From UHGV virus genome UHGV-0072940: 16,360 nt of DNA. One strand, written 5' to 3'. Position 1 is the first letter of the stretch. Every line of letters begins with the position of its first letter. The translations under genes were made by a program, and so were the position numbers. Positions 1 to 16,310 of the stretch are shown here, in pieces. This DNA comes from a virus. A model generated the notes under the pieces. The model was not told where the DNA came from and searched no databases. It saw only the letters and a list, made by a program, of their open reading frames with translations.

Positions 1-53
1 TATTTGCAGTTTTCGCAGATGATGTCGGTGATACTTCGTCGCTGTCGCCTCAT
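1..53 (-). CDS. nin-region ORF, 5' end only (runs off the window start); possibly NinE-like
   Basis: ATG at 53..51 on the minus strand overlaps the TGA stop of the methyltransferase gene (ATGA coupling). The frame MRRQRRSITDIICENCK stays open to position 1. The NinE assignment is from memory and unverified. Confidence 0.4.
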   Translation of the reverse strand, partial: MRRQRRSITDIICENCK

Positions 54-577
54 GCCGCCCTCCTGACGCCCTGCCCGATCGCCATCAATGCCGCTTTGGA
101 TACGGTAGTAAACATCCGTCGAGGACTGATGAACGGTCGCCAAATCAGCAGCATGGAACCTTTGCTGTTTCCCTTCTTCTCCAGCCCTGTCGATGGTTCG
201 ATAAAATTAATCCGTCCATCAGTGATGATGCGAACTTCGTCAACACTCTCCAGAGCCTTACTGAACCATCCGACAGACATATCCTCTGGCACAAGCATCA
301 CTACCGTCTGTCGTTGTTGTATGCACTGCTCAGCGGCTTTTTCCACCCACGGCCTGATATTGCTGTACGGTGGGTTATTCCAGATTGCACCGTGGCTTAC
401 CCACTCAGAATTGAGCGCGTCGTCGGCCTCAGTTAGCCAGTGAGCACACAGAGCATTTTTGTCGCTCGCTGCCGAATCCAGCCAGAATCCAAACTCAATA
501 TCCAGTGCATCAAAAAGCCAAAGCGGCGTTTGCCAGCAGTCCTTGTCGTGTGCTGGCGTATTTGATTTGATAGTCAT
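50..577 (-). CDS. phage DNA N6-adenine methyltransferase (Dam-like, orphan)
   Basis: Six-frame ORF 50..604 contains the NPPY motif (AIWNNPPYSN) typical of N6-adenine methyltransferases. Start chosen at ATG 577..575, which overlaps the NinB stop as ATGA; the upstream ATG at 604 is an alternative. Confidence 0.75.
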   Translation of the reverse strand: MTIKSNTPAHDKDCWQTPLWLFDALDIEFGFWLDSAASDKNALCAHWLTEADDALNSEWVSHGAIWNNPPYSNIRPWVEKAAEQCIQQRQTVVMLVPEDMSVGWFSKALESVDEVRIITDGRINFIEPSTGLEKKGNSKGSMLLIWRPFISPRRMFTTVSKAALMAIGQGVRRAA

Positions 578-1020
578 GCAGCCTTCCCTTTTCGTTGTGA
601 CCATTCATACTCTCGCCAGGAGTCATCACTCCACCGCACGTTGCGCTCTGAGCCGAACCAGAACATGATTTCGATAAGCTCAGTCATGCTGGCCTTCCGC
701 ATTTTGCTGGTGCGCACACCAAGCATGACAACGCCACCGCCGATACCAGGCGCACTTCGTTGCTCCAGTTTTTTGGTCTTAAGCCACAGGGCAGTGAACA
801 GGTCTTTCCAGTCTTCCGGCGCCAGCCGTTGACCATGCCATAGCACCTGACGCGAAACATCGTTCAGCATCGGCCACATACGGTCATTCTGCGCTTTGCT
901 GCGCTTGGGTTCTTTAACGTGGACTTCGTGGGGTGACTTGTCGTCGATGGGTAGTGAGAGAATGGCGTCTATGGCGTTATTTCTGATTGCTTCGTTGCGA
1001 AGCAGAAAGGTTTGCTTCAT
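574..1020 (-). CDS. ninB: NinB (Orf-family recombination mediator)
   Basis: Translation from MKQTFLLRNEAIRNNAIDAIL to WSQRKGKAA is collinear with lambda NinB as recalled (148 vs 146 aa). Start placed at the internal ATG 1020..1018, preceded by a GGAG-type RBS; the six-frame ORF extends further upstream but that part lacks NinB similarity. Confidence 0.85.
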   Translation of the reverse strand: MKQTFLLRNEAIRNNAIDAILSLPIDDKSPHEVHVKEPKRSKAQNDRMWPMLNDVSRQVLWHGQRLAPEDWKDLFTALWLKTKKLEQRSAPGIGGGVVMLGVRTSKMRKASMTELIEIMFWFGSERNVRWSDDSWREYEWSQRKGKAA

Positions 1021-1213
1021 CTCCTGCTCTCCGGTTCCATTTTTCAGCCGCCGCAGCAACTGATGGTGCCCATGCCCCCCTGGCTTCACAGAGGTCACAT
1101 TCTGCATAGCCCCACACATCAATATTTATTCCGGCCTCAACCCACAGACGAGCATTACCGCCGCAAAACGGACATTCTTTTAGCTTTGGCTGGGTTAATG
1201 ATAGGTCGCTCAT
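977..1213 (-). CDS. Lar-family restriction alleviation protein (small zinc-ribbon)
   Basis: 78-aa product MSDLSLTQPKLKECPFCGG...YAECDLCEARGAW with a CPFCGG / CDLC pattern as in Lar/RalR-type proteins. ATG at 1213..1211 with GGAG RBS. The 3' end overlaps the ninB start by 44 nt in another frame. Confidence 0.65.
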   Translation of the reverse strand: MSDLSLTQPKLKECPFCGGNARLWVEAGINIDVWGYAECDLCEARGAWAPSVAAAAEKWNRRAGDEANLSASQRSNQK

Positions 1214-1223
1214 GCTCACTCCT

Positions 1224-1439
1224 TTACTTAAAATCCAGACTCCGGATAATTCTGTTGCGCTGAAACTCATTGTTGAGTTTGAACAACCGTCGAAGAACAC
1301 GGTCACGCGGATAGCGTCGTGCGGCAGGTGAATGCTCATACAACTCATCAAGCGGCAAACTGGACGATGAACGATACCGATACCAACGCACCAACTCTTC
1401 ACGAAAATTAGCCCTGACAAGCTCAGCTATCGTACTCAT
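1224..1439 (-). CDS. hypothetical protein, 71 aa, Arg-rich
   Basis: ORF with GGAGG RBS about 10 nt upstream of ATG 1439..1437. No recognisable motif. Lies between the tR2-like terminator and lar, a position that is empty in lambda. Confidence 0.5.
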   Translation of the reverse strand: MSTIAELVRANFREELVRWYRYRSSSSLPLDELYEHSPAARRYPRDRVLRRLFKLNNEFQRNRIIRSLDFK

Positions 1440-1465: not shown

Positions 1466-1499
1466 TCAAATAAAAAGGCCTGCGATTACCAGCAGGCCT
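1466..1499 (-). terminator. rho-independent terminator, tR2-like (after ren)
   Basis: 8-bp perfect stem AGGCCTGC (1476..1483) / GCAGGCCT (1492..1499) with an 8-nt loop. On the minus-strand transcript it is followed by UUUUUAUUU; the plus strand has no U tract, so it is unidirectional. Confidence 0.65.
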
Positions 1500-1524: not shown

Positions 1525-1815
1525 TCATCTTTTAACTCCATATACCGCCAATACCCGTTTCATCACTGCACTCTGGCGACACTCCTTAAAAATCAGGTTC
1601 GTGCTCACCTTTCCTTCCCGTTCTTCCCTGGTAGCAAACCGGTAATACACCGTTCGCCAGACCTTACCATCAATGACAAGGATTCCTGCCCGCGCCATTT
1701 TAGCCGCAGCCTGATTTATACTGGTTACGGTTGCGCCTGTTAGCGCGGCAACGTCCGGCGCACAGAAGCTATTATGCGTCCCCAGGTAATGAATAATTGC
1801 CTCTTTGCCCGTCAT
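1525..1815 (-). CDS. ren: Ren protein
   Basis: 96-aa product MTGKEAIIHYLGTHNSFCAPDVAALTGATVTS matches lambda Ren as recalled. Same length as lambda ren (291 nt). ATG overlaps the P stop (ATGA). Confidence 0.85.
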   Translation of the reverse strand: MTGKEAIIHYLGTHNSFCAPDVAALTGATVTSINQAAAKMARAGILVIDGKVWRTVYYRFATREEREGKVSTNLIFKECRQSAVMKRVLAVYGVKR

Positions 1816-4221: not shown

Positions 4222-4929
4222 ATGGTTCAGAATGAAAAAGTGCGCAAAGAATTCGCCCAGCGGCTAGCGCAAGCCTGTAAAGAAGCTGGTCTTGATGAAC
4301 ATGGTAGGGGAATGGCTATAGCCCGTGCCCTTTCTCTTTCGTCCAAAGGCGTTAGCAAATGGTTTAATGCTGAGTCTTTACCGCGTCAGGAAAAAATGAA
4401 TGCGCTTGCGAAATTTCTAAACGTTGATGTTGTTTGGCTTCAGCACGGCACTTCGTTAAATGGAGCGAATGATGAAGATACTCTTTCATTTGTTGGCAAA
4501 TTAAAAAAAGGGTTAGTGCGCGTGGTTGGTGAGGCAATTCTTGGTGTTGATGGTGCCATCGAGATGACCGAAGAGCGCGATGGGTGGCTCAAAATTTATA
4601 GCGATGATCCAGATGCCTTTGGTCTTCGTGTGAAAGGAGACAGCATGTGGCCCAGAATAAAATCAGGAGAATATGTACTCATTGAGCCTAACACCAAAGT
4701 ATTCCCGGGTGATGAGGTGTTTGTCAGAACCGTTGAAGGACACAACATGATTAAGGTTCTTGGCTATGACAGAGATGGAGAATACCAATTTACAAGCATT
4801 AACCAGGATCACAGGCCTATAACGTTGCCTTATCATCAAGTAGCAAAGGTGGAGTATGTAGCTGGTATTCTGAAGCAATCTCGCCATCTGGATGACATCG
4901 AGGCAAGGGAGTGGCTGAAAAGTTCGTGA
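4222..4929 (+). CDS. cI: CI-type prophage repressor (N-terminal HTH, C-terminal S24/LexA-like peptidase domain)
   Basis: 235 aa. N-terminal HTH region, C-terminal GDSMWP serine motif with a downstream Lys (NMIKVLGYD). Divergent from cro across an operator region. Not lambda immunity by sequence. Confidence 0.85.
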   Translation: MVQNEKVRKEFAQRLAQACKEAGLDEHGRGMAIARALSLSSKGVSKWFNAESLPRQEKMNALAKFLNVDVVWLQHGTSLNGANDEDTLSFVGKLKKGLVRVVGEAILGVDGAIEMTEERDGWLKIYSDDPDAFGLRVKGDSMWPRIKSGEYVLIEPNTKVFPGDEVFVRTVEGHNMIKVLGYDRDGEYQFTSINQDHRPITLPYHQVAKVEYVAGILKQSRHLDDIEAREWLKSS

Positions 4930-4989: not shown

Positions 4990-5331
4990 ATGGCGTTCAC
5001 TGACCTTGAATATCAAGCGGTCAAAAAAGAAGTTCACCAATTCATTGAAAGCATAAGGCCGCCTGAACATATCCGCAATGAACTGGATATTGTTTATAGC
5101 ATCAATGACCAAACGATAGATATCGGCGAACAGCGCCCCGTGTGGCAGGGCAACCCAGGTGAAACAAACATCCTGCCATCAGCAAGAATCAAGTACATAC
5201 GTTCTCTGGATAGATGGAAAATCTATTGGATGCGGAAGGATATGAAATGGCATCAGTACAGTACTGAACTTTCGCTGACTGATGCGCTTGAGCTTGTGCG
5301 TGCTGACCCGGATTGCTGCTTCTTCGGATGA
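4990..5331 (+). CDS. hypothetical protein A (113 aa), first gene of the cI-linked operon
   Basis: Strong RBS GAGGAGG 5 nt upstream of ATG 4990. No terminator between the cI stop (4929) and this gene. No recognisable motif. Confidence 0.6.
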   Translation: MAFTDLEYQAVKKEVHQFIESIRPPEHIRNELDIVYSINDQTIDIGEQRPVWQGNPGETNILPSARIKYIRSLDRWKIYWMRKDMKWHQYSTELSLTDALELVRADPDCCFFG

Positions 5332-5401
5332 GTGAAGAGACGTTTGGATGATGGATGGTCGCAGAGATGCTCGTAGAGCATACAGCGATGCAGGAGAATT
5401 T

Positions 5402-5836
5402 ATGGCACTTAATTTAGAAAGAATATCTTTTATAACCCCATTTGATAGCAGCGAAGAACCCAACCAACCGACGCTTAATTTTACATGCAATGAATTTCCT
5501 GCGCGGCTATCAATTGATTTCAGGGTTGGTATGATCGGGTTGAAACCAAATTCAAGATATAATTTGGGTATTATGGTAATCCCCGCGCACCTAATTATAA
5601 AAAAAGGTGAGGAAATTCAATTCCCTGACGGCTCTTCGGAATCAGTTTCACTTTTCATCGATACGAAAGATAGCCATTTTGAAACAGGGGTTGGCGGACA
5701 GGTAATAGTAACATTGAAAGAAATTAGGGTCCCAGCTAAAGGGCTGTATAGTGTTATAGGGATATTGCAAGATAATGAAGACCCTAAAAATGAACTTCAT
5801 AAAAATGAATCATTTTTCACCGTAGAGCTATTATGA
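5402..5836 (+). CDS. hypothetical protein B (144 aa), second gene of the cI-linked operon
   Basis: Start placed at the internal ATG 5402 preceded by AGGAG (six-frame ORF begins at 5348). AT-rich coding sequence. Stop overlaps the next start (ATGA at 5833..5836). Confidence 0.55.
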   Translation: MALNLERISFITPFDSSEEPNQPTLNFTCNEFPARLSIDFRVGMIGLKPNSRYNLGIMVIPAHLIIKKGEEIQFPDGSSESVSLFIDTKDSHFETGVGGQVIVTLKEIRVPAKGLYSVIGILQDNEDPKNELHKNESFFTVELL

Positions 5837-6453
5837 GTGACGACAGTAATTTAAATAATCATGGAAAGCAAGACACCAACATATCTGAAAGCCGGAGGTT
5901 GAAGGTTGTTGGCGGTTCTGATTTTGAGGCTGAATTTGATAATTCTCCCACCAAGGTGCAAAATAATTACATAAAACCGCCACAAACGGAGGAAGAAGTG
6001 GGAACGATCAGCAGAGAGGAACTTGATGCTCGCTTAGCTGCTAATAAAGCAGAGATGGAGTCTATTGCTTCCTCCATTAGGGCTGACATGGCTCTATCTC
6101 GTGAAAGCGTTAATGTCCAATTTGCATCACTTAATGCAGCCATAAGCTCTCTATCGTCCAAGATCGATGGAAAGATGGATAGCGCTGCTGGCGATATAAA
6201 AGCAATTAATGGGAGATTCGAAGGAATTCAAGGACAAATAACAGGGGTTAATACCGCAATTAGTGGTGTTCAGTCGGGTATTTCTATACGATTAGCCATT
6301 TTTAGTGTCATTATCGCTGTAATAGTTGCGATTCCCGGGCTGGTATCAGCTTTAAAGTCAGACCACGCACCTTTGCAACAGCCTTCCACTTTGCAAGCGC
6401 CGCCACAAAATACCCAGCCAACAGACAACAAAAAAATCACTCCCCAGCATTAA
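5833..6453 (+). CDS. hypothetical membrane-anchored protein C (206 aa), third gene of the cI-linked operon
   Basis: Translationally coupled to B. Polar N-terminus, long Ala/Ser/Ile-rich helical segment, one hydrophobic span LAIFSVIIAVIVAIPGLVSAL near the C-terminus, then a Pro/Gln-rich tail. Confidence 0.6.
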   Translation: MSDDSNLNNHGKQDTNISESRRLKVVGGSDFEAEFDNSPTKVQNNYIKPPQTEEEVGTISREELDARLAANKAEMESIASSIRADMALSRESVNVQFASLNAAISSLSSKIDGKMDSAAGDIKAINGRFEGIQGQITGVNTAISGVQSGISIRLAIFSVIIAVIVAIPGLVSALKSDHAPLQQPSTLQAPPQNTQPTDNKKITPQH

Positions 6454-14301: not shown

Positions 14302-15588
14302 ATGAGTAACGTATCATACCCGACAGGCGTTGAAAACCATGGAGGATCACTCCGTATATGGTTTCACTATAATGGCAAACGTGTCAGAGAAAACCTCGGT
14401 GTTCCTGACACCGCCAAAAACCGGAAGATCGCAGGTGAACTTCGCACTTCCGTTTGTTTTGCAATCAGAATGGGGAGTTTCGACTACGCCACACAGTTCC
14501 CTAATTCCCCTAACCTGAAACACTTTGGTCTGGGAAAAAGAGAGATAACCGTTAAGGCACTTTCGGAAAAATGGTTGGACCTTAAGAAAATTGAGATTTG
14601 TGCGAATGCACTTAATCGTTACCAGTCAGTAATTAAAAACATGTTGCCTATGTTGGGTGAGAAAAAACTGGTTTCATCCATAACAAAAGAGGATTTACTT
14701 TTCGCAAGGAGAGATTTGTTGACCGGTTACCAAAAGCTTTCTAATGGAAAGATTTCTTCCATAAAAGGGCGCTCAGTGGTCACAGTAAACTACTATATGA
14801 CAACCATAGCTGGAATGTTTCAATTTGCAACAGATAATGGTTATACCTCAGGAAACCCATTTAACGGTCTGGCTCCCTTAAAAAAGTCCAAGGTAAAACC
14901 AGATCCTCTCACCCGTGACGAATTTATTCGTTTTATTGAGGCTTGCCGTCATCAACAAACAAAAAACCTGTGGATTCTCGCTGTATACACGGGTATTCGT
15001 CACGGGGAGTTGGTATCGCTGGCATGGGAAGATATAGACCTTAAAGCAAGGACTATAACCATCCGTAGAAATTATACAAAACTTGGCGAATTCACTCCAC
15101 CAAAAACCGATGCAGGCACCGGAAGGACAATTCATCTGGTTCAACCAGCTATTGATGCTCTTAAAAGCCAGGCGGAAATGACCATGCTTGGAAAGCAACA
15201 TTCTGTAGAGGTGAAGCAGAGGGAATATGGGAGAACTGCTGTGCATAAATGCACTTTTGTTTTTAGTCCTCAGGTAACAAAACAGCAGCAGTTGTCCGGA
15301 CCTCACTACAAGGTTGACTCCATCAGGGAGTCATGGACAAGTATCTTAAAACGCGCAGGTCTGAGACACAGAAAATCGTACCAATCCAGGCATACTTATG
15401 CATGCTGGTCACTTGCCGCTGGAGCTAATCCTAGTTTTATCGCAAGCCAGATGGGCCACACAAACGCACAAATGGTATTCAATGTTTACGGAGCATGGAT
15501 GAAAGACAACAATCACGAACAGATAGAACTCCTTAACAAAAGACTATCTGAAAGTGTCCCATGTATGCCCCATAAGAAAGTGGGGTAA
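14302..15588 (+). CDS. int: tyrosine-type site-specific integrase
   Basis: 428 aa. The C-terminal catalytic region carries the conserved residues in the expected order (R in YTGIRHGEL, HTYACW, GHTNAQMVFNVYGAW with the tyrosine nucleophile). GGAGG RBS. Larger than and distinct from lambda Int. Confidence 0.9.
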   Translation: MSNVSYPTGVENHGGSLRIWFHYNGKRVRENLGVPDTAKNRKIAGELRTSVCFAIRMGSFDYATQFPNSPNLKHFGLGKREITVKALSEKWLDLKKIEICANALNRYQSVIKNMLPMLGEKKLVSSITKEDLLFARRDLLTGYQKLSNGKISSIKGRSVVTVNYYMTTIAGMFQFATDNGYTSGNPFNGLAPLKKSKVKPDPLTRDEFIRFIEACRHQQTKNLWILAVYTGIRHGELVSLAWEDIDLKARTITIRRNYTKLGEFTPPKTDAGTGRTIHLVQPAIDALKSQAEMTMLGKQHSVEVKQREYGRTAVHKCTFVFSPQVTKQQQLSGPHYKVDSIRESWTSILKRAGLRHRKSYQSRHTYACWSLAAGANPSFIASQMGHTNAQMVFNVYGAWMKDNNHEQIELLNKRLSESVPCMPHKKVG

Positions 15589-15662
15589 AATAAAAACTTG
15601 TAAAATCAGTTAGTTTACCCTTAATCCCTGTCACGTTACGCGCGTGGCAGAGGCGTTACGGA
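15589..15662. other. prophage-host junction (att region) at the integrase-proximal end
   Basis: The integrase stop is followed within about 40 nt by the point where similarity to a MerR-family HTH (PVTLRAWQRRYGLLKPQRTDGGHRLF) begins in the downstream frame. The exact core cannot be placed without the other prophage end. Confidence 0.5.
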
Positions 15663-16310
15663 TTGCTGAAACCGCAACGGACAGACGGCGGTCATCGGCT
15701 GTTCAACGATGCCGATATTGACCGGATCCGCGAGATCAAACGCTGGATCGACAACGGCGTGCAGGTCAGCAAAGTTAAAATGCTGCTCAGTAATGAAAAT
15801 GTTGATGTGCAGAACGGCTGGCGCGATCAGCAAGAAACATTACTGACTTACCTGCAAAGCGGCAATCTACATAGCCTGCGAACGTGGATCAAAGAGCGCG
15901 GTCAGGATTACCCCGCCCAGACACTCACCACACATCTGTTTATTCCTCTGCGCCGACGGCTTCAGTGCCAACAACCGACTCTCCAGGCGCTGCTGGCGAT
16001 CCTCGACGGCGTACTGATCAACTACATCGCCATTTGTCTGGCTTCGGCACGTAAAAAACAGGGTAAAGATGCGCTGGTGGTTGGCTGGAATATTCAGGAT
16101 ACCACCCGTCTGTGGCTGGAGGGCTGGATTGCCAGTCAACAAGGATGGCGCATTGATGTCCTCGCCCACTCGCTCAATCAACTACGCCCTGAACTATTCG
16201 AAGGCCGTACATTGCTGGTGTGGTGCGGTGAAAATCGAACCTCCGCCCAACAGCAGCAACTCACCAGTTGGCAAGAACAAGGCCATGATATTTTCCCACT
16301 CGGCATTTAA
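15627..16310 (+). pseudogene. mlrA: MerR-family transcriptional regulator, 5'-truncated by prophage insertion (mlrA/yehV-like)
   Basis: The frame encodes PVTLRAWQRRYGLLKPQRTDGGHRLFNDADIDRIREIKRWIDNG and continues to a stop at 16310. Upstream in frame there is no ATG or GTG before a stop at 15591, so the first ~15-20 codons of the HTH are missing. The mlrA assignment rests on recollection that Stx-type lambdoid prophages insert in yehV; the paralogue bluR cannot be excluded without a search. Confidence 0.6.

What the first reader, a model, noticed from the sequence alone, without database searches (positions are those of the whole stretch)
50..1439. Nin region carries an orphan Dam-like methyltransferase and a Lar-type restriction-alleviation gene
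Relative to lambda (ren, tR2, ninB), this phage has a 71-aa ORF and a Lar-like zinc-ribbon protein inserted between the tR2-like terminator and ninB. NinB is followed by an orphan N6-adenine methyltransferase, translationally coupled as an ATGA chain. Both Lar-type proteins and orphan methyltransferases are known counter-restriction devices, so this is a delayed-early anti-restriction cluster. The Arg-rich 71-aa ORF has no assigned function.
Basis: partly seen in the sequence, partly recalled or inferred. Interest (0 to 1): 0.45.

Follow-up and report, generated by a model that had tools for sequence, protein, structure and literature searches.

The report
Known Stx-phage nin-region dam/lar module
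This stretch is the ordinary, already annotated start of the nin region of a 933W/VT2-Sakai-type lambdoid prophage of E. coli; its methyltransferase is identical to an enzyme reported to methylate GATC, and only the small 71-residue protein (DUF7301) has no known function.

Summary
On the minus strand, after a terminator hairpin identical to lambda tR2, lie a 71-aa Arg-rich ORF (1224-1439, Pfam DUF7301), a Lar-family zinc-ribbon gene (977-1213), ninB (574-1020), a Dam-family N6-adenine methyltransferase (50-577) and the start of ninE. The ninB/dam and dam/ninE junctions are ATGA overlaps.

None of it is new. RefSeq annotates the same five genes in E. coli genomes. The Dam and Lar proteins are 100% identical to VT2-Sakai orf32 and orf30, and 933W has carried the methylase annotation since its GenBank record. 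Orf32 is the only methylase-like gene in VT2-Sakai, so I take it to be M.EcoVT2Dam, reported to target GATC. The proposed specificity test is therefore already answered.

The "anti-restriction cluster" reading is only partly supported. Lar and Dam assort independently: 68 of 80 viral loci with the identical Dam lack DUF7301-Lar. They are separated by a recombination gene. GATC is already methylated by the host Dam. The prototype Lar (Rac RalR) has also been described as a DNase toxin.

DUF7301 is a real, conserved family of unknown function. It usually sits directly upstream of ninB-type genes.

The parts
1..53 (-). 5' end of ninE (start ATG at 53-51; the gene runs off the window edge)
   Evidence: PGAP annotates a NinE family protein at the equivalent position in a 98.9%-identical locus. 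ATGA overlap with the dam stop codon at 50-53.
50..577 (-). dam: orphan phage N6-adenine DNA methyltransferase, 175 aa, identical to VT2-Sakai orf32 (taken to be M.EcoVT2Dam, GATC)
   Evidence: PF05869 E=6e-65. TIGR01712 266 bits against 97. PADLOC orphan MTase model. 175/175 identical to VT2-Sakai orf32. NPPY at residues 68-71.
574..1020 (-). ninB (Orf-family recombination mediator), 148 aa
   Evidence: PF05772 E=3e-47. phrog_72. PGAP coordinates. phmmer E=3e-32 to lambda NinB.
977..1213 (-). Lar-family zinc-ribbon protein, 78 aa; CxxC...CxxC at Cys14/17/39/42
   Evidence: PF14354 41 bits, TIGR03655 62 bits, phrog_599 E=9e-39. 36% identical to Rac Lar/RalR. 78/78 identical to VT2-Sakai orf30.
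1224..1439 (-). DUF7301 family gene, 71 aa, basic (14 Arg, pI 10.8), predicted three-helix protein, function unknown
   Evidence: PF23975 91 bits. phrog_1785, unknown function. Differences by codon position 23/7/30 against a 60%-identical homologue. 46 representative clusters in a profile search. Conserved core SSSLP..E....RP....Y[PR]RDRVL. AF2 pLDDT 75-76, all helical.
1466..1499 (-). Intrinsic terminator, hairpin identical to lambda tR2 (AGGCCTGC-TGGTAATC-GCAGGCCT then TTTTTATTT)
   Evidence: Terminator scan. Alignment with the lambda ren-ninB intergenic region.
1525..1815 (-). ren (upstream neighbour, last gene before tR2)
   Evidence: phrog_142, Ren-like exclusion protein, E=2e-41. PGAP 'protein ren'.

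Best explanation
This is the first part of the nin region of a 933W/VT2-Sakai/BP-4795-type lambdoid prophage of E. coli.

**Expression (inferred from lambda).** Transcription from pR reads through a lambda-identical tR2 terminator once N antitermination is active. It then expresses, as one tightly packed message, DUF7301, a Lar-family zinc-ribbon protein, NinB, the Dam methyltransferase and NinE. The ATGA overlaps are seen directly; the translational coupling they suggest is inferred.

**Dam.** The protein is identical to VT2-Sakai orf32. I take this to be M.EcoVT2Dam, which is reported to methylate GATC. Methylation of GATC on replicating phage DNA follows from that identity plus the literature, not from a test here.

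**Lar.** By homology to Rac Lar, the Lar-like protein most likely modulates type IA restriction-modification (restriction alleviation with enhanced modification). This is inferred and untested.

**NinB** is the Orf-type recombination mediator.

**DUF7301** is a real, conserved, small basic helical protein of unknown role. It typically precedes ninB-type genes.

The genes are independent mosaic cassettes that happen to be adjacent. They are not a co-inherited anti-restriction unit.
For: - Domain hits are well above curated cutoffs.
- RefSeq annotates the identical gene set in an E. coli chromosome that is 98.9% identical.
- Megablast finds the region in 437 phage records and 3635 of 5426 complete E. 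coli genomes.
- The whole window is most similar to JLK-2012, BP-4795 and 933W.
- Dam and Lar are 100% identical to VT2-Sakai orf32 and orf30. Orf32 is the only methylase-like gene annotated in VT2-Sakai.
- 933W L0094 is annotated as a putative N6-adenine methyltransferase similar to those of HP1 and T1.
- The GATC specificity of M.EcoVT2Dam is cited in PMC6602927.
- The tR2 hairpin is identical to lambda's.
- Independent assortment: 68 of 80 loci with the identical Dam lack DUF7301-Lar. DUF7301 also occurs with a NinB-like protein and Dam but no Lar. 7 of 80 near-identical DUF7301 loci lack Lar.
Against: - Nothing here tests activity. GATC specificity rests on a paper I could only reach second-hand.
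- Equating orf32 with M.EcoVT2Dam is an inference from it being the only methylase-like gene in that phage.
- Lar function rests on 36% identity to a protein with two different published activities.
- DUF7301 and Lar do travel together in most near-identical copies (about 70 of 80), so some functional linkage between those two is not excluded.
Confidence: 0.85

Rival explanations
1. One reading: DUF7301, Lar and Dam together form a coordinated delayed-early counter-restriction cluster. Lar would alleviate type I restriction, and Dam would protect phage DNA from GATC-cleaving enzymes.
For: Lar-family membership. The Dam matches orphan methyltransferase models. All three lie in one transcription unit after tR2. 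DUF7301 relatives lie within 3.5 kb of a DNA methyltransferase in 6 of 10 distinct contexts.
Against: Lar and Dam assort independently. They are separated by a recombination gene. GATC is already methylated by the host Dam. The role of phage Dam enzymes is described as not well understood (PMC7556043). No background rate was computed for the methyltransferase association.
Confidence: 0.25
2. The Lar-like protein is a RalR-type non-specific DNase toxin belonging to a type I toxin-antitoxin pair, not an anti-restriction factor.
For: The family prototype, Rac b1348, is now annotated as endodeoxyribonuclease toxin RalR with an sRNA antitoxin RalA (PMC4041452). It is 36% identical, with the four Cys and the WN[KR]R motif conserved.
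Against: The RalR equivalog model scores 27.6 bits against a cutoff of 113. The window contains no RalA-like sequence, and the longest complementarity between RalA and the lar mRNA is 8 nt, which is chance level. There is no Rfam hit nearby. The gene is embedded in an operon and overlaps ninB by 44 nt, which does not resemble a stand-alone TA locus.
Confidence: 0.1
3. The phage Dam serves the phage's own DNA transactions or regulation rather than defence evasion. Possible roles are keeping GATC fully methylated during rapid replication, influencing lysogeny stability, or affecting mismatch repair or packaging.
For: Host Dam is reported to be essential for stable 933W lysogeny, and a Phi24B phage Dam was proposed to supplement it (PMC3342100). 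NinB-Dam pairing was constant in all 80 loci sampled, which links Dam to a recombination or replication gene rather than to Lar.
Against: There is no direct evidence for this protein. The NinB-Dam adjacency could simply be inherited synteny among very close relatives, since all 80 loci carry the identical Dam.
Confidence: 0.3
4. The 71-aa ORF is not a gene. The real product would be a longer Lar protein starting upstream in another frame, as annotated for 933W L0092 and BP-4795 ORF30.
For: A 147-codon TTG-start ORF (977-1420) overlaps the 71-aa ORF and was annotated in older records.
Against: Differences by codon position in the 71-aa frame are 23/7/30. Read in the other frame, the most variable position would be codon position 2. 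The 71-aa protein belongs to a diverse family of 46 representative clusters with a conserved core, found in contexts without Lar. A GGAGG lies 8-9 nt upstream of its ATG, and an AAGGAG precedes the short Lar ATG. PGAP annotates both short genes.
Confidence: 0.03

Closest known systems
VT2-Sakai (Sp5) and 933W nin region: orf29-[unannotated DUF7301]-orf30-orf31(ninB)-orf32(dam)-orf33(ninE); 933W L0091-L0094
   Same: Same gene order. Dam and Lar proteins are 100% identical and DUF7301 is 70/71 identical. The same lambda-type tR2 is present upstream in the related phage JLK-2012.
   Different: The window lacks the 396-bp segment encoding a 92-97 aa protein (phrog_343) that lies between tR2 and DUF7301 in 933W, VT2-Sakai and JLK-2012. 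933W and VT2-Sakai do not annotate DUF7301, and 933W annotates an over-long Lar.
M.EcoVT2Dam and the HP1/T1-type small phage Dam methyltransferases (Pfam PF05869, TIGR01712)
   Same: Sequence identical to VT2-Sakai orf32. Full-length HMM match, NPPY motif, about 175 aa, no partner endonuclease.
   Different: None detected. Activity was not re-tested here.
Rac prophage Lar (= RalR, b1348)
   Same: Small CxxC...CxxC zinc-ribbon protein. 36% identity over 58 residues. Same Pfam and TIGRFAM family.
   Different: It lies in the pR/nin operon, whereas Rac lar sits next to recET in the pL-side region. No RalA antitoxin sRNA was found. The score is far below the RalR equivalog cutoff. There is a 14-residue longer C-terminal tail.
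Lambda nin region (ren-tR2-ninB-ninC-ninD-ninE) and lambda Ral
   Same: Identical tR2 hairpin and homologous ren, ninB and ninE. If Lar acts like Ral, the outcome (enhanced EcoKI modification) would be the same.
   Different: Lambda has no DUF7301, lar or dam here, and dam replaces ninC and ninD. Lambda's Ral is unrelated in sequence and lies in the pL operon. No Pfam Ral hit was found among the pL ORFs of at least 60 aa tested in this window.

Membership tests
Phage N6-adenine methyltransferase (PF05869 / TIGR01712, HP1/T1/VT2 Dam type) | Full-length match to the family HMM above the curated cutoff | tested here: met
   PF05869 218 bits against 28.1, covering profile positions 1-167 of 169. 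TIGR01712 equivalog 266 bits against 97.
Phage N6-adenine methyltransferase (PF05869 / TIGR01712, HP1/T1/VT2 Dam type) | Catalytic motif IV (D/N)PP(Y/F) | tested here: met
   NPPY at residues 68-71.
Phage N6-adenine methyltransferase (PF05869 / TIGR01712, HP1/T1/VT2 Dam type) | Methylates adenine in GATC | not testable with these tools
   The protein is 175/175 identical to VT2-Sakai orf32, the only methylase-like gene of that phage. M.EcoVT2Dam is stated to target GATC in PMC6602927, citing Radlinska & Bujnicki 2001.
Orphan methyltransferase | No cognate restriction endonuclease gene adjacent | tested here: met
   The neighbours are ninB and ninE. In the 98.9%-identical annotated locus, the next genes are antirepressor-type genes, DUF1364, rusA and Q. 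PADLOC matches orphan MTase models.
Lar family restriction alleviation protein (PF14354 / TIGR03655) | HMM match above the curated cutoff | tested here: met
   PF14354 41.3 bits against 28.6. TIGR03655 62.3 bits against 39.6. phrog_599 E=9e-39.
Lar family restriction alleviation protein (PF14354 / TIGR03655) | Four-cysteine zinc ribbon (CxxC...CxxC) shared with Rac Lar | tested here: met
   Cys14/17/39/42 align with the Cys pairs of Rac Lar.
Lar family restriction alleviation protein (PF14354 / TIGR03655) | Alleviates EcoKI restriction and enhances modification | not testable with these tools
   Known only for Rac Lar (King & Murray 1995, cited in PMC6158711 and PMC4041452). This protein is 36% identical to it.
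RalR/RalA type I toxin-antitoxin system | Toxin reaches the RalR equivalog model | tested here: not met
   NF007260 27.6 bits against a cutoff of 113.
RalR/RalA type I toxin-antitoxin system | RalA-like sRNA with about 16 nt complementarity to the toxin mRNA | tested here: not met
   Only chance-level matches of 11 nt or less to RalA anywhere in the window. The longest complementarity to the lar mRNA is 8 nt. No Rfam hit nearby.
NinB / Orf recombination mediator (PF05772) | HMM match above the cutoff and homology to lambda NinB | tested here: met
   160 bits against 23.8. phmmer E=3e-32 to lambda NinB.
DUF7301 (PF23975) | HMM match above the cutoff; conserved core Y[PR]RDRVL | tested here: met
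   91.4 bits against 27. The core is near-invariant across 37 diverse members; only L28 and R45 are fully invariant.
Lambda tR2 intrinsic terminator | GC-rich hairpin plus U tract located between ren and the nin genes | tested here: met
   8-bp stem with 6 GC pairs followed by TTTTTATTT. Hairpin and T tract are identical to the lambda ren-ninB intergenic sequence.

The most novel reading that the evidence does not exclude
DUF7301 is a functional partner of the ninB/methyltransferase module rather than a bystander. It might be a small basic nucleic-acid-binding or protein-binding factor that modulates recombination, methylation or a host defence. This would explain why it sits directly upstream of NinB or a NinB-like protein in 6 of 10 distinct phage contexts. 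It would also explain why it lies near DNA methyltransferases of three unrelated families (PF05869, PF05063, PF00145) in 6 of 10.
Probability: 0.15. Interest if true: 0.35.

Novelty: already known. Interest (0 to 1): 0.1.

Why it matters
It matters little beyond good annotation. The module is common in Shiga-toxin and related lambdoid prophages of E. coli. Its methyltransferase has a published specificity, and its Lar-like gene already carries that family name in RefSeq.

Three modest points are of use:
- Older reference records (933W, VT2-Sakai, JLK-2012, BP-4795) miss DUF7301 or annotate an over-long Lar.
- The biological role of the phage-borne GATC methylase in a Dam-positive host remains unresolved.
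- DUF7301 is a widespread, uncharacterised small protein with a consistent position next to ninB-type genes.

Tried and rejected
- **PDB sequence searches** with Dam, Lar and DUF7301 gave nothing significant. Lar gave only weak zinc-ribbon similarity to ribosomal eL43.
- **RalA-like antitoxin RNA:** none found by Rfam or by local blastn and complementarity search.
- **Ral homologue in the pL operon:** none by Pfam among the ORFs tested.
- **Defence-system models (PADLOC)** hit only the Dam, as an orphan MTase, and an unrelated gene next to cI.
I therefore sampled the taxonomic and context spread of distant members with ten encoding-contig look-ups instead.
- **Papers not held:** the Murphy 2013 review, Murphy 2008 and the original Radlinska & Bujnicki paper. 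The GATC specificity is cited second-hand.
- **No paper mentions DUF7301**.
- **The idea that the long 147-codon ORF is the true Lar** was rejected on codon-position evidence.

Full report
**Observation**

All genes in 50-1439 are on the minus strand. Reading in the direction of transcription:

| Feature | Coordinates | Notes |
|---|---|---|
| ren | 1525-1815 | last gene before the terminator |
| Intrinsic terminator | stem 1499..1476, then TTTTTATTT | |
| 71-aa ORF | 1224-1439 | |
| 78-aa ORF | 977-1213 | |
| ninB | 574-1020 | |
| 175-aa methyltransferase gene | 50-577 | |
| ninE start | 53 downwards | cut by the window edge |

The ninB/dam junction (574-577) and the dam/ninE junction (50-53) both read ATGA on the coding strand. 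The 78-aa gene overlaps ninB by 44 nt. The 71-aa gene ends 10 nt before the 78-aa gene's ATG, which is preceded by AAGGAG. The 71-aa gene's own ATG is preceded by GGAGG. I first placed the ninB start at 1017; the ATG is at 1020, as in PGAP.

**Identification**

- **Methyltransferase.** It matches Pfam PF05869 (Dam) at E=6e-65 over the whole profile. It reaches the TIGR01712 equivalog at 266 bits against a cutoff of 97. It carries NPPY at residues 68-71.
- **ninB.** It matches PF05772.
- **78-aa protein.** It matches PF14354 (41 bits against 28.6), TIGR03655 (62 against 39.6) and phrog_599, all Lar families. It has Cys14/17/39/42. It is 36% identical to Rac Lar over 58 residues, with the cysteines and the WN[KR]R motif aligned.
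- **71-aa protein.** It has 14 Arg and pI 10.8. It matches PF23975 (DUF7301, 91 bits) and phrog_1785, both of unknown function.
- **Terminator.** The hairpin and its T tract are identical to the lambda sequence between ren and ninB, which is tR2.

Lambda's order is ren-tR2-ninB-ninC-ninD-ninE. Relative to lambda, DUF7301 and lar are extra genes between tR2 and ninB, and dam takes the place of ninC and ninD.

**How common and how known**

- The 1.9-kb segment has megablast matches in 437 GenBank phage records, mostly Stx-converting phages, and in 3635 of 5426 complete E. coli genomes.
- In E. coli O39:NM F8704-2, 98.9% identical, PGAP annotates at exactly equivalent coordinates: phage N-6-adenine-methyltransferase, recombination protein NinB, Lar family restriction alleviation protein, DUF7301 family protein and protein ren.
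- The whole window is most similar to JLK-2012, BP-4795 and 933W.
- The Dam protein is 175/175 identical to VT2-Sakai orf32. The Lar-like protein is 78/78 identical to orf30. An unannotated VT2-Sakai ORF is 70/71 identical to the DUF7301 protein.
- In 933W, L0094 is annotated 'putative DNA N-6-adenine-methyltransferase, similar to methylases of bacteriophage HP1 and T1'.
- Orf32 is the only methylase-like gene annotated in VT2-Sakai, so I take it to be M.EcoVT2Dam. PMC6602927 states that this enzyme targets GATC, citing Radlinska & Bujnicki 2001. The original paper is not held, so this is second-hand.

**Is it an anti-restriction cluster?**

The parts are separable:

- Among 80 IMG/VR loci carrying the identical Dam, all have NinB immediately upstream. 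Only 12 have DUF7301-Lar, and 68 go straight from ren or other genes to NinB-Dam.
- In GenBank phages, 244 records carry a Dam at least 95% identical, against 119 with this Lar.
- Near-identical DUF7301 copies are mostly followed by Lar (about 70 of 80), but 7 are followed directly by NinB.
- A 60%-identical DUF7301 variant is followed by a 140-aa NinB-like protein and the same Dam, with no Lar at all.

Functionally, GATC is already methylated by the host Dam. Any protective value would be limited to Dam-sensitive GATC endonucleases, or to under-methylation during rapid replication; this rests on general knowledge of Dam. PMC7556043 states that the role of phage Dam enzymes is still not well understood. 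PMC3342100 raises a lysogeny-related role instead.

The Lar inference rests on a prototype that MG1655 now annotates as RalR, a DNase toxin with an sRNA antitoxin (PMC4041452). The window's protein does not reach the RalR equivalog cutoff (27.6 bits against 113). No RalA-like RNA or complementarity is present. I therefore rate the toxin reading low, but it shows that the family's biochemical function is not settled.

Overall, the gene calls are right and a counter-restriction contribution by Lar is plausible. A dedicated cluster is not supported.

**The 71-aa ORF (DUF7301)**

Older records annotate a long ORF in another frame that fuses an N-terminal extension to Lar and overlaps this ORF (933W L0092, BP-4795 ORF30). 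Comparison with a 60%-identical homologue gives 23, 7 and 30 differences at codon positions 1, 2 and 3 of the 71-aa frame. That is the pattern of a coding frame; in the alternative frame, the most variable position would be codon position 2.

- **Close relatives.** A word-index search found 33 clusters; every cluster to which a source gives an organism name is E. coli or E. albertii.
- **Wider family.** A profile search of 1.84 billion representatives found 46 clusters at E of 1e-3 or less. They share a core SSSLP..E....RP....Y[PR]RDRVL. It is a genuine protein family.
- **Literature.** No paper in the library mentions DUF7301.

Contexts of ten distinct subfamilies were sampled:

- DUF7301 lies directly upstream of NinB, or of a 140-148 aa protein related to the L007 protein that scores just under the NinB cutoff (20 bits against 23.8), in six of ten.
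- A DNA methyltransferase (PF05869, MT-A70 PF05063 or C5 PF00145) lies within 3.5 kb in six of ten.

I did not compute a background rate, and methyltransferases are common in these regions. This is a lead, not a finding.

**Mechanism summary**

- **Shown by sequence:** gene order, overlaps, terminator identity, family memberships, and identity to the VT2-Sakai proteins.
- **Shown in the literature for an identical protein, with the orf32 = M.EcoVT2Dam assignment inferred:** GATC methylation.
- **Inferred from lambda biology:** N-dependent read-through of tR2, hence delayed-early expression, and translational coupling at the ATGA overlaps.
- **Inferred by homology only:** restriction alleviation by the Lar-like protein.
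- **Unknown:** the role of DUF7301.

**Verdict**

This is a correct but ordinary observation of an already annotated module. Interest is low. The only open element is DUF7301.

Noticed in passing
window 1224-1439 (-); loci L005-L011, L175-L185: DUF7301 relatives sit directly upstream of NinB or a 140-148 aa NinB-like protein in 6 of 10 distinct contexts. They lie within 3.5 kb of a DNA methyltransferase of three different families (PF05869, PF05063, PF00145) in 6 of 10. No background rate was computed.
   Followed up: partly
L012 (933W) 2498-2857; L013 (BP-4795) 2159-2584; L004 (VT2-Sakai) 15572-15787: Reference phage records annotate an over-long Lar ORF that overlaps the DUF7301 gene in another frame, or leave DUF7301 unannotated. 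The 933W Lar matches in two pieces (87% coverage), which suggests a frameshift in that record.
   Followed up: partly
between window 1439 and 1476; L001 4572-4850: A 396-bp segment encoding a 92-97 aa protein (phrog_343, unknown function) lies between tR2 and DUF7301 in 933W, VT2-Sakai, JLK-2012 and the Stx1a phages. It is absent from this window.
   Followed up: partly
window 4990-5331 (+), 5348-5836 (+), 5833-6453 (+): Immediately downstream of the cI repressor gene (4222-4929), in the position of lambda rexAB, lies a DUF3024 protein. It matches the PADLOC candidate defence model PDC-S43 (E=7e-42). Two ORFs follow that match only PHROG families of unknown function.
   Followed up: no
window 8931-8989 (+): Rfam Lambda_thermo (cIII thermoregulator RNA element), 88.5 bits. 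This was the only Rfam hit in the window.
   Followed up: no
L095-L174 (six IMG/VR loci): Six loci show a second DUF7301-like match upstream of the 97-aa ORF, in addition to the copy before Lar. This could be a duplication or a partial copy.
   Followed up: no
protein P0031 (single Logan contig): A 68-aa protein joins a Cro/YdaS-like helix-turn-helix N-terminus to the conserved C-terminal half of DUF7301. It is probably a recombinant or deletion product.
   Followed up: no
whole window: GATC is mildly under-represented: 46 observed against 63-68 expected. Each strand has one EcoKI site (14234 and 14608), both near int and neither in the nin region.
   Followed up: no
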